Positions 1-43,539 of a stretch of 64,000 bases of DNA are shown piece by piece (positions within the stretch are counted from its first letter, which is position 1; the number at the start of each line of letters is the position of its first letter). The DNA is from Chrysomallon squamiferum (taxonomy: Eukaryota; Animalia; Mollusca). The notes beneath the pieces were generated by a model, which made no database searches, was not told the DNA's origin, and saw nothing but the letters and a program-made list of their open reading frames with translations. A program made the translations under genes and the position numbers. The stretch spans positions 22,320,001 to 22,384,000 of the forward strand of contig CM022671.1 of assembly GCA_012295275.1 (NCBI GenBank), read 5' to 3'.

Positions 1-3000
1 AGCGTTAAAAACAGGCATAACCGTATCAGTTACAATACGACAGTTGCAGCCAATAATATTTAACACCAGAAGATCGGTTTTGGCACAAAATAAACATAGT
101 TTCAGATTTCAGAGAGAGAGAGAGAGAGAGAAAAAAAAAAAAAAAAAAAAAAATGTTTTTAAAGATTTTAGAAAATAAATAACACGTTTGGAGATCACAG
201 AAATATATGTTTCTCATGATTTGAATAACGAGTAAGATCCTGGACACAGATTTTTTTTAAATTTCAGAGTTCATAAAATTAAATTATTTTTTATTTTATA
301 GCCCGAAACCACCGAGGAATAAGCATTGTTTGCCACCACTGAAAAAAAAAATTATGGTATGAGACCTTTAACAATATGATAAGCGACCTTTACGTACTAC
401 TTTTCTAAAATAAATAACATTTATAGTTTAACAACTCCGAAATACATTTAAGAAATACATTTTGTCGATGTTCTGGAAAGAAAGATAATAATAATAATAA
501 TAATAAATAAATAAATAAATAATAAAAAAATTAAGAAAAATGTCTGCTCGTTTCCTGTCCGTTATGTGCGTGCTATTTCGCCATAGTTTTTACTTGCTTG
601 TCACAGTCACTATAATTAGAGTCGACAGCAAAGTACGCTGTTAGCGCCACGCTGACAAAAAAATGCAGGTAACAGAAAGACTACACTGAATGTAAGTGCA
701 CATTATTTACTGGGTTTCATTTTTGAAGAACGAGCCTCTTTATACTTCAACCGTATCAGTTTTCGTGTCTAATGTTCAGATGATCGTTTATATTTTCCTT
801 TCTTAATTTTTTTTTTTTTTTTTTTTTTTTGTGGGGGGATTTTTCTTTAGTGAAACCGACTAAAAAAAAAAAAAAAAAAAAAAAAAAAAAAAAAAAAAAC
901 ATTTAAATATCGCGTGTCTTAGGGCCATCCTGATTTGTTAAGAAATAATAAAAAATTTAACATCCCGTACATTTTCAGAGTAGATATTTATTGGCTTATT
1001 ATTGTTTTATAGCCTGTGTGGTCAAGAATGCTGCGGTTTTGTGTACGTAACTTATTGTAAGAGATGGGTGGTGCCTTTACAGAGAAACAGTGTTTTTGTT
1101 TTGAAAAAAAAAAAAAAAAAAAAAAAAAAAAAAAAAAAAAAAAAAAAAAAAAAATGAAATGAATAATAACTGAAAAAAAAGAAAAAAAGATAGCTATTAA
1201 ATTTAATATGTTAATCTCTGTCTTTGTCTGTTTGTTTATCTTTCTCTCTGTGTGTAAGTAGTAGTACTGAGCCTCGATTTCACGGACTGGTGTTGTGTGG
1301 GGGGGGAGGCCCGGTCGAGAAATTGCGAATGCAAACATTGAAACATGAAGATGGTGGAGAGGCGGTTGCTGTGATCTATAGTGGGACTCAGAATAATTTC
1401 TGTATGTATGTATGTATGTATTTGTGTGTGTGTGTGTGTGTGTGTGTGCGTCGCAGTTATTGATATACTTTACCGGGAAAACTGTTCAGTATAACGATTT
1501 AGATCAAGTATTTGAACAATAATAATAATAATAATAATAATAATAATAATAATAATAATAATCAGTAACAATAACGACATCATCAACATCAACATCATCA
1601 TCAGCAACAATGGCAATAGCCCCAACAACGGCAATAATAATAATAATAATAATAATAATAATAATAATAATAGAAGTAGTAGTAGTAGTAGTAGTAGCAG
1701 CAACAGCAAAAACAGTAACAGATAACAATTTAAAAGTTACATTCAAGTTTCACAATATGCACTTCACGCAGCTCTCTTCAGTCATAGAATTTTAAACACG
1801 AAGTAAAATTAACATAATTTATGTAATATTCATGCACTGGTTCATACCGTAGCTAGAATGATAACTTAAGTGTCGCTACGCCTTCACTTCGACATATATT
1901 TTACACAATGGAGACTCATGGTCTTGTACCACTTTCTCACATTAATTTTTAGAAAGGAGAAGTTATTTAGTTTAATTATATTTCAAGGTCAGAATAAAAT
2001 ATGTAACTGCAATAATGTGAATTATAATAGTCTGGATTTAACGAGAAAAACGTTATGAAGAAAAAATAAAATAAAATAAGGTAAAAAAATAATGATGATG
2101 ATGATGATGATGATCATGATGATAACAACAGCAACAATAGTAACAGTGTTATAACTGAAAATTAAAATACAGAATGAAAAAGATATTTCAGTAATTATAT
2201 TTTAATTTATATTGTTAATACTTTAATAAATGTATTAAAAATAATAAATAAATAAATAATAAATAATAGGTTTTTTGTTACGAAATAAAACAAAACTAAG
2301 TAATTAAAAAAAAGTAATAGTAATAAATAAATAAACAAATAAATTAATTAATTAAAAAAAAAAAAAAAAAATAAAATAAAAAAAATAAAACCAAAAATAA
2401 AAAAAAAATAAAAATAAACAATAACAAATAATAATAATTAATAATAATAATAATAATAATAATAATAATAATAATAAAATAAAAAAAAAAAAAAAAAATA
2501 ATTAATCAATTTTTACAAACAAAACACACGAGTCTATTTCCACTCGTAGAGATTTGCTTTAATCTGCGAGAAAGCCCGAGTCTCGGTCACATCACTAAAT
2601 ACGTTCAACAGACACTTGTACTCGCTGACTCTCGACCTGTGTTTGATGTCCACGCCGACTCTTGTGGCATTAATGCCTAATGTCTTGTGGTGCTGTACGG
2701 CGACAGTGTTTCATAACATGACCAAACGGGCTGAACAAGAGACCGTACGATATGTCATTGTCACAGCCGTAGCAAGACAGCAACCCCTGATGTCGACTTC
2801 GTTTTCCACTCTCTGACCTTTTCAGTTTCACTGTTTTAAGTAGTAGAAGAAAAGATGCTGTTGATGATTAAAAAAAAAAAAAAAAAGATGATGATGATGA
2901 TGATGATAATGCAACAGAAGCAACATCGACAAAAGCAATAATATTATATATTTAAAACAAATTTCAAATATAATAACCATCATGGTTCGTTGTGATGGTA

Positions 3001-40800: not shown

Positions 40801-43539
40801 TCTCTATGGCAGTAAAGACGCTACATAATGTTTTAATTATAATGATTTATGCAGGGTTCAAACCTGTGTCTTTTTTTGACGTTTTTTAAAGCTTCTTTTA
40901 TTTATAAAATGGACAAGTGCGATTACAGGATTTCAGAAAGAGAAGGAAACTCTGAAGAAGAAATTAAACGAAAAACAAAATTAAAATAAAACAAAAATAA
41001 AAAGGAAAAAGAATCATAGATTTGAGAAGCATATTTCTACGTTACACTTCGCATGAAAGTATTCATTATAAAGAAATTTACTTAGGTTTTTCTTTTTTTT
41101 AACATCCTTCCACAAAAGAAATGTCTAAGCATGCAAGTCGTGGAGGACACAGTTCCTGTCGTTGTTGTTAAAGCCCCTTATCTTACTGATGTCATTGTAA
41201 CATTACGTGAAGTCAGGGTTAAGTTTATTACGGAGGTGGTGCTATATGCTGACACGCGAAAAAAAAAAAAAAAAAAAACCCTGCCAAATTAAAACATGCC
41301 AGAAGCAGTTGGTTTTTGTCTTAGAATAACCCAAACAAAGCTGGCCCAGTGTTCCACACTTTACAGGCTTTTGTGCGGTAAATCCCCAACTTTCTCACTG
41401 AATTCAGCGACGAAGTGTTTAGCCGGTTTTGTCCAAAGTGTTCCCTTGTCACCTCGCTTCGAGCATTACCATCAGCCGAAATCCAACTGGCGTCTCCTAA
41501 ATGAAAACAGTTAAGGGTTTAGTCTTGTTCCTTATTCAGCCTGTCCGGCAGTCATAGAACTTGCTCGGCGAAGCGGGGTGGAGCTGGCGCCGTGCAGATT
41601 GGCCCGAAAATGCTCGTCTCATTGAAACGGGCGCAGGAACAATGGTCGCTAACACCTTCCCTGTTTTATGCCTTTCTTATTAATTATGATCGCTCCGGAA
41701 CGATCAACGCCGATTACGCGCCTCACAATGGTGGATAAAATGAACTGGTTGACACATCGTGTTATAGACTTATCTTGGGTAAGTAATTACATTTTCGCTG
41801 GTCAGCCGGGATCCCGGGCAAACACACAAAAGCTCGCTTTTTTTTTTGTTTTTATCGCCAATCAGCGAAATGTTGCTAGACGTTCGTCTGATTAGAACGC
41901 AAAAACACTGAGGAAAACACACGAGCGTGTTGTTAAAAGAGTTCGCGACAAACTGCATTAAACAGCAACACCGGCGACGACTCCGTCTTTTGTTGAAACA
42001 GTGATTTTAATGACTTGTGACCTCCGAACAGGATAAAAAATTATTTTATGTTTGTGTATGTCGCTGAAGTTCTGTCGCTTCTGTCATTTGTAACAGCTAT
42101 GAGAATGACGGTAGCAACATAATTATGTTATTTGTTTTACTAATTTTGGCAAGTTTGGTCCTGACAAAATGTTTGCATCTGTTATCAGGAAGCTTTCTCA
42201 CCGATTTTGATACGCCGTATTTTCTCCGCCCTCTTCCATGGAAAAAAAAAAACACAGGATAACTCGGTCTATTGTCATTCACACACACACACACACACAC
42301 ACACATATATATATATATAGCCCGTAAATTCATTGTAGACAATAGACAATGATTTGAACATACACGTTTACGGAAAACATCTAGATCAACCACAACAAAT
42401 AATATATTTATCAAACTACCATTATTATCAATGTTCTGCTATTATTATCTTCATAAAAACAACTGTTATTAGTGTCGTTCTTACTTATGCTACTACAACC
42501 ATTTATAATAATAATAATAATAATAATAATAACAAATACAACAACAACAACAATAATAAGAAGAAGAAGAAGAAGAGAAAGAAGAAGAAGAAGAAAAAGA
42601 AGAAGAACAACAACATTAACTTCACTACCACCAATCACCACCAAACCAACAACAAAAATGATAATATAAAACAAATAAATAAATAAATAAATAAATAAAT
42701 AAATAAATAAATAAATAAATGTTGAAAAATAAACAAATTTGAGCTGAAACTGAATAAGCAAAGGATTAAAGATTTTTGCTAATAGTTTCATAAACATGGA
42801 AAGCCTAGAACATTAAAGAAAGATTTATATAACTATTTTGTCTTTACCTTTATCATCACCATCATCATCACCATCATCATCGTCGTCGTCGTCGTTGTTA
42901 ATACTATTCTTACAATTCTATTATTATATACTACTAAAACAGTAATCCAAAAAACCCATTATCATCTTCTTATTTATTCTAAGATTCAAATTTTATTTGC
43001 TAAATAAATGTTTATAAGTTCTTTGATCAAGCAAAAACAATTAAATAATCTCAAAAACAAAAGATCACTGAAGAAATCTACTGTTTATAAATAAAAGACT
43101 ACAGTTTAAACTCCGGGTGAGCAATCTATGTTTACAAATGGTTAACAGCTAAGATGTCAATCACAGAATCTGGGGCGTGGCTTCATCCTTCAGCTGGAAA
43201 CAGTTCGCCCTGGAAATTATAAATTTATGACCACCAATGTCGAGATTCGGAATTTATTAACAAAACAGTACACTCCATTTTAGCACTAGAAAATATGTAC
43301 CTAAAACGTTACCACCGTAAAGCAACAACACACTTTTTTCCCCCCAATTTCTTATATTAAAATAAAACATTTTTATAAAGTATTTATTATTTATGAACAG
43401 TGGCCTGGGGTAATTAATACATCCATGATCGATCGTTGGTGAATGGTGTCAAATCCGCGTGTTGACATATTGTCAAGTGAGATAAAGAGCTCAAAGCCGC
43501 AGACAGTGTGTCTAGCCGTTTCGTCAAGCCCGCGAACAG

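What the first reader, a model, noticed from the sequence alone, without database searches (positions are those of the whole stretch)
480..42000. Mirror-symmetric, strand-polarised repeats bracket nearly every CpG island
Seen: on the + strand, islands are usually preceded by the A-rich version of a repeat (poly-A, AAAT, AAT, CA, GA, TACA) and followed by the T-rich version (poly-T, TTTA, TAT, TG, CT, TATG). Examples: (CA)n 14550 | island 14720-15300 | (CT)n 15480; A-rich 15680-16005 | 16050-16400 | T-rich 16430-16600; A-rich and (CA)n 17220-17540 | 17750-18750 | T-rich 18846; A-rich 21760-21825 | 21850-22180 | T-rich and TG/TATG 22190-22870; A-rich 23265-23370 | 23400-23860 | (TATC)n and T-rich 23900-24280; A-rich 31380-31600 | 31620-32090 | T-rich 32120; (GA)n 32401 | 32690-32980 | (CT)n 33084; (GA)n 36879 | 37260-37740 | (CT)n 37787. 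Exceptions exist, such as the T-tracts before 5330. Reading outward from an island on either strand is therefore T-rich, the same polarity as much of the sense strand of the Tbx2/3 introns. Inference: each island is a point source of strand asymmetry, for example a bidirectionally transcribed enhancer, a replication initiation site, or a nucleosome-positioning unit bordered by oriented poly(dA:dT) barriers. Microsatellite orientation could then map regulatory elements genome-wide.
Basis: partly seen in the sequence, partly recalled or inferred. Interest (0 to 1): 0.8.

Follow-up and report, generated by a model that had tools for sequence, protein, structure and literature searches.

The report
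Mirror-image strand bias flanks GC islands
Around a mollusc T-box developmental gene, most short GC-rich patches are slightly richer in G and T when read outward on either side, and five stretches are boxed by a GA repeat on the left and a CT repeat on the right, which likely records strand-biased mutation around regulatory elements rather than repeats acting as signposts.

Summary
Real but overstated. The window is a mollusc Tbx2/3 locus. With 42 islands defined blind to skew, A-before/T-after polarity beats all 9000 circular shifts (z 4.3). Only 20 of 42 show both signs, so "nearly every" is wrong. They are not vertebrate-type CpG islands (window CpG o/e 1.17). The signal is not mainly about repeats. 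After masking, the outward strand still has about 25 extra T and 31 extra G per kb. The bias is near zero at island centres, peaks at the edges and is gone by about 400 bp. Poly(A/T) follows it 2:1; CA/TG does not. One sub-signal is sharper: five (GA)n…(CT)n pairs 0.6–1.5 kb apart and none reversed (p≈0.003, uncorrected). One pair shares about 150 non-periodic bases at 99%. The one island testable, the promoter, is conserved in a related species. The polarity matches human CpG-island asymmetry and divergent transcription. It is opposite to meiotic resection, G-rich origin elements and Alu-bordered barriers. Introns lack it, and 33 other animal T-box loci show it weakly or not at all. Best guess (0.4): a mutational footprint of short outward transcription from regulatory elements. 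The scan earlier noted similar mirror skews on other DNA.

The parts
549..42110 (.). 29 non-coding GC/CpG-rich islands (all 42 islands of the window: median 410 bp long, centres about 1.3 kb apart), likely cis-regulatory elements of Tbx2/3. Their edges and the first 200-300 bp outside carry an outward G+T excess.
   Evidence: regulatory status inferred
19058..20665 (.).
26223..27630 (.).
32401..33210 (.). Pair 3: (GA)n 32401-32470, island 32769-33026, (CT)n 33083-33210
36878..37870 (.). Pair 4: (GA)n 36878-36965, island 37254-37745, (CT)n 37787-37870
61756..63624 (.). Pair 5: inverted arms of about 230 bp at 99% identity, made of (GA)n/(CT)n plus about 150 bp of non-periodic purine-rich sequence, enclosing two islands that look like exons
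   Evidence: not checked against reads
15479..15552 (+). Unpaired long (CT)n right of island 14693-15070; with (GA)n at 111-130, one of the two unpaired tracts among the 12 of at least 20 bp
43398..43723 (+). Tbx2/3 promoter island. It aligns to a related species at about 86%, as well as the coding exon does, while its flanks do not align. The 930 bp upstream is G+T-rich on the outward strand.
43693..54023 (+). Tbx2/3 gene. Exon 1 ends at 44124 and is spliced to exon 2 (48824-49091) in two runs; later exons at about 51601-51747, 52731-52803 and 53099-54023 are read from the sequence. Its introns lack the G+T excess.

Best explanation
The GC-rich patches around this Tbx2/3 gene carry a mirror-image excess of G and T on the strand read outward, and this is likely a mutational footprint left by short outward transcription from patches that are likely regulatory elements. 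Steps: (1) shown: the skew exists, is diffuse at single-base level, is near zero at centres, peaks at edges and fades by about 400 bp. (2) Shown for one island (the promoter), inferred for the rest: the islands are constrained cis-regulatory sequence in an AT-rich, repeat-rich background. (3) Inferred: polymerase initiating or pausing outward at both edges leaves the outward-reading (non-template) strand single-stranded, so C>T and A>G transitions accumulate on it. The (GA)n…(CT)n pairs follow the T-outward rule but occur together more often than that rule explains. They likely need an extra step, such as inverted copying of one arm onto the other.
For: The skew survives masking of 28% of the window: T-A z 2.7, G-C z 5.7. 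A definition-free cross-correlation gives z 3.3 and 5.4, positive in 6 of 6 10-kb blocks for both skews. The outward G+T excess is positive at 31 of 36 non-coding islands (sign test p 1e-5). The absolute excesses are about equal (T-A 25/kb, CI 9-42; G-C 31/kb, CI 18-45), as transition bias predicts, and dinucleotide ratios roughly follow single-base skew. Profile. The real promoter is conserved and its upstream flank shows the effect at about twice the island mean (71 and 66 per kb). Literature has the same polarity: A>G excess switching at human CpG islands (PMC2817419, section 14); C>T excess limited to the first 1-2 kb and attributed to single-stranded non-template DNA (PMC2927911, passages); poly(T) up to 1.4-fold on the non-template strand (PMC7181645, passages). 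Invertebrate conserved non-coding sequence is mostly GC-rich (PMC5203776, abstract), and CNEs are listed near tbx-2/bi/TBX2 (PMC1852409, table fragment).
Against: The transcribed introns show no such skew (masked T-A +0.023, G-C -0.019) and no repeat orientation away from acceptors (27:28). The first 500 bp of intron 1 is mixed (G-C +45/kb, T-A -47/kb). Mirror G-C skew persists at islands inside the gene (z 4.0 for 7 islands), so elongation is not the cause. Poly(A) signals are rarer outward than inward (80 vs 171) and 5' splice-site words are even, unlike the recalled signature of terminated antisense transcripts. The model needs germ-line activity of developmental enhancers, which is not shown. 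Skew does not scale with island CpG or GC (rho 0.19 and 0.28, n.s.). Across 33 other animal T-box loci the pooled effect is weak or absent (T-A z 2.1, G-C z -1.4). (CT)n outward lowers G-C and so runs against the G part of the skew. Conservation was tested for only 1 of 42 islands.
Confidence: 0.4

Rival explanations
1. Selected chromatin architecture: oriented poly(dA:dT) and base skew at island edges are kept because remodelers read their direction and set nucleosome boundaries around each element.
For: The skew is anchored on edges and spans 1-2 nucleosomes. [quoted passage not shown] Nucleosomal DNA has A 5' and T 3' of the dyad (PMC2900294, passages). Fly conserved elements show an A/C-versus-G/T asymmetry (PMC3671938, passages). 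Absence from intron bodies fits.
Against: The human dyad pattern is A-G-C-T, whereas here it is A/C then G/T. Human barrier borders have the opposite polarity, driven by Alu, and are symmetric without Alu (PMC6028776 and PMC4966569, passages). There is no clear 10-bp AA/TT/TA period in islands (peak 1.05). The strongest component is a diffuse G-C skew in non-repeat DNA. Five exon-like islands average about zero (confounded by splice signals).
Confidence: 0.22
2. By-product of repeat turnover and local inverted copying: decayed TG/CA- and T/A-rich repeats and template switches across short distances build mirror arms, with no island-centred transcription or selection. Part of the strength comes from the reader choosing the best 42 kb.
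For: The arms of pair 5 share about 150 non-periodic bases at 99%. The top asymmetric words are TG- and T-rich, and masking such words cuts T-A to 0.012 and G-C to 0.049. T-A polarity is not significant beyond 43 kb.
Against: 4 of 5 GA/CT pairs share nothing beyond the repeat, and pair interiors are unrelated. Inverted copying alone would give CT…GA as often as GA…CT, yet the count is 0 vs 5. Repeat-poor non-island segments show no skew. G-C skew gets stronger after masking.
Confidence: 0.18
3. Each island is a potential bidirectional replication origin; the outward-reading strand is the lagging-strand template and deaminates more.
For: The polarity is the same as that ascribed to origins at human CpG islands (PMC2817419). 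It explains independence from gene direction and absence from intron bodies.
Against: The human effect is constant over hundreds of kb; here it ends by about 400 bp and recurs about every 1.3 kb. Mouse and human origin motifs are G-rich left and C-rich right of the start site, the reverse of these islands (PMC4665008, passages).
Confidence: 0.12
4. Islands are meiotic break hotspots: biased gene conversion makes them GC-rich and resection makes the flanks asymmetric.
For: It would explain GC enrichment and a symmetric centre with asymmetric flanks (PMC7615360, passages).
Against: The predicted polarity is opposite. Resection exposes the forward strand left of the break, where C and A are lost, but here the left side is A/C-rich. 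The scale of 1-2 kb is also too long.
Confidence: 0.05

Closest known systems
Bidirectional strand asymmetry originating at human CpG islands (Polak & Arndt, PMC2817419; abstract and section 14 read)
   Same: Island-centred mirror asymmetry of the same sign (A>G excess to the right, so G+T outward), also away from genes.
   Different: That effect is measured from substitutions, constant over hundreds of kb, at true CpG islands about 100 kb apart. Here it is compositional, under 400 bp, edge-peaked, at 44%-GC patches about 1.3 kb apart in DNA without CpG depletion.
TSS-localised C>T asymmetry and non-template poly(T) bias (PMC2927911, PMC7181645, PMC13712754; passages read)
   Same: G+T and poly(T) excess on the non-template strand, strongest near initiation.
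   Different: Described for vertebrate gene promoters and gene bodies. Here the gene body lacks it and it appears on both sides of many intergenic patches.
Invertebrate conserved non-coding elements and their flanking composition (PMC5203776 abstract; PMC1852409, PMC3671938 and bioRxiv 10.64898/2026.07.16.739003 passages)
   Same: GC-rich, poly(dA:dT)-poor elements clustered at developmental regulators including Tbx2; the fly study notes an A/C-versus-G/T asymmetry and microsatellite enrichment.
   Different: Fly elements are 20-50 bp AT-rich foci with A/C downstream. The passages read from the other three papers do not report strand polarity. None of the passages reports paired GA/CT tracts.
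Oriented poly(dA:dT) and nucleosome-inhibiting barriers (PMC4212969; PMC6028776; PMC4966569)
   Same: Orientation of A/T tracts matters at a scale of about 1 kb; the yeast poly(T)-then-poly(A) order matches the gaps between these islands.
   Different: Human barrier polarity is opposite and due to Alu. The main signal here is not tract-based.

Membership tests
Vertebrate-type CpG island | CpG-rich patch in a CpG-depleted genome | tested here: not met
   Window CpG o/e 1.17; outside islands 0.83
Vertebrate-type CpG island | At least 200 bp with GC >=50% and o/e >=0.6 (criterion recalled) | tested here: inconclusive
   20 of 42 contain such a window; mean island GC 44%
Conserved non-coding element | Conserved in a related species while flanks are not | tested here: inconclusive
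   Met for 1 of 1 island laid (promoter). No data for the other islands. No non-coding match to 80 distant loci except one simple repeat.
CpG-island-centred bidirectional asymmetry | Sign switch at the island with G+T outward | tested here: met
CpG-island-centred bidirectional asymmetry | Asymmetry constant to the midpoint between islands, over long range | tested here: not met
   Falls to about zero or negative beyond 400 bp in nearest-island bins
Divergently transcribed enhancer | Short RNAs on both strands from the edges | not testable with these tools
   Only two spliced contig sets, no strand or start information; laid on the promoter region only
Divergently transcribed enhancer | Poly(A) signals enriched outward (feature recalled) | tested here: not met
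   AATAAA 80 outward vs 171 inward; confounded by AAAT repeats
G-rich (OGRE-type) replication origin | G-rich left and C-rich right of the start site | tested here: not met
   Islands are C-rich left and G-rich right versus PMC4665008
Nucleosome-inhibiting barrier array (NIEB) | Poly(A) directly after the GC-rich block, or symmetric tracts | tested here: not met
   T-tracts outward 46:23 within 200 bp
Meiotic break hotspot | Loss of C and A on the forward strand left of centre | tested here: not met
   Left side is A/C-rich versus PMC7615360
Foldback / terminal-inverted-repeat transposon (for the GA/CT pairs) | Shared termini or interiors among copies | tested here: not met
   4 of 5 pairs have no arm similarity beyond the repeat; interiors share only a simple repeat. 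Target-site duplications and genome copy number were not tested.

The most novel reading that the evidence does not exclude
Convergent (GA)n…(CT)n tract pairs are a genome-wide structural bracket in this lineage: each pair encloses one regulatory element, is made or kept matched by inverted copying across the element, and acts as an oriented boundary or stem. Together with the edge skew, this would let enhancers of a snail be mapped and oriented from sequence alone.
Probability: 0.15. Interest if true: 0.75.

Novelty: new variant of a known kind. Interest (0 to 1): 0.45.

Why it matters
If the skew is genome-wide, it is a sequence-only record of where a strand-specific germ-line process starts, in an animal group with little chromatin data. 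It would bring the unresolved transcription-versus-replication question for island-centred asymmetry down to single elements, where PRO-seq and origin maps can separate the two. As a mapping tool it adds little to GC content (AUC 0.7-0.8). The paired GA/CT tracts are the surprising part, but they rest on five pairs in one window.

Tried and rejected
No whole genome was held, so no genome-wide test was possible. Consecutive homopolymer tracts gave weak support: A-to-T intervals have higher CpG density for tracts of 8 or more (p 0.003) but not for 6 or more, and GC is never significant. Pairing in repeat families other than GA/CT: none of 9 significant. A shared dispersed repeat or SINE under the islands: self-BLAST gave 9 short hits, none a family. 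An oriented transcription-factor motif or CpG decay as the cause: dinucleotide ratios are close to single-base expectation, with TG/CA 0.49 vs 0.36 the largest excess. No RNA holder was listed as such; runs X8 and X9 proved to be spliced. Parts without contig cover are not evidence. A second read-laying on upstream islands returned no data, so their conservation and transcription stay open. The putative gene at 60.6-63.2 kb: no Pfam match for the one frame tested and no homologue. Other animals: 80 of 182 confirmed loci were returned, collapsed to 53 clusters, and the 33 of 3 kb or more were tested. They are short, gene-proximal, crudely masked and of unidentified taxa, so they are a weak control. 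Paper searches for paired inverted GA/CT tracts or this pattern in molluscs found nothing relevant in the listings; that is not proof of absence. PMC8228248 passages had nothing on polarity. No supplements were read; supplementary figures of the barrier and fly papers could bear on polarity.
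Full report
Setting. The window is 32% GC and rich in simple repeats. It holds a T-box gene on the + strand (Pfam T-box). Its exon-1 protein matches a chiton TBX2-like protein best (48%), so the animal is probably a mollusc; earlier scan notes on this genome call it a snail (not tested further). Two runs of the same organism are spliced from exon 1 to exon 2, and one starts at 43693. I noticed no other gene in 1-43 kb (ORF list, read by eye). No whole genome was held, so all statistics rest on 64 kb.

Noticed in passing
window 61756-61986 and 63368-63624: Inverted arms of about 230 bp at 99% identity, including about 150 bp of non-periodic purine-rich sequence, lie in what look like two introns of a downstream gene. 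They could pair in pre-mRNA around the enclosed exons (skipping or circular RNA). They could also be an assembly artefact.
   Followed up: partly
window 60600-63230 (+): Exon-like open frames with splice-like ends and RHKR/RYKR dibasic-like sites suggest an unannotated, possibly secreted precursor gene. The last frame has no Pfam match and no homologue.
   Followed up: partly
window 43555-43600: Two opposed CCAAT-like boxes sit inside the conserved promoter block of Tbx2/3 (motif label recalled).
   Followed up: no
window 48496-48817, 53056-53094: Acceptors of Tbx2/3 exons 2 and 5 are preceded by long (TAT)n runs instead of a usual pyrimidine tract; this accounts for much of the introns' T-richness.
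   Followed up: partly
window 1-21500: Repeats are A-rich on the + strand overall (86 vs 54, p 0.009), a broader bias on top of the island pattern, possibly antisense transcription or fork direction.
   Followed up: no
window 10207-10386: A 61-bp minisatellite of 2.9 copies at 89%; degenerate direct repeats also occur at about 11800-12420.
   Followed up: no
   Followed up: no
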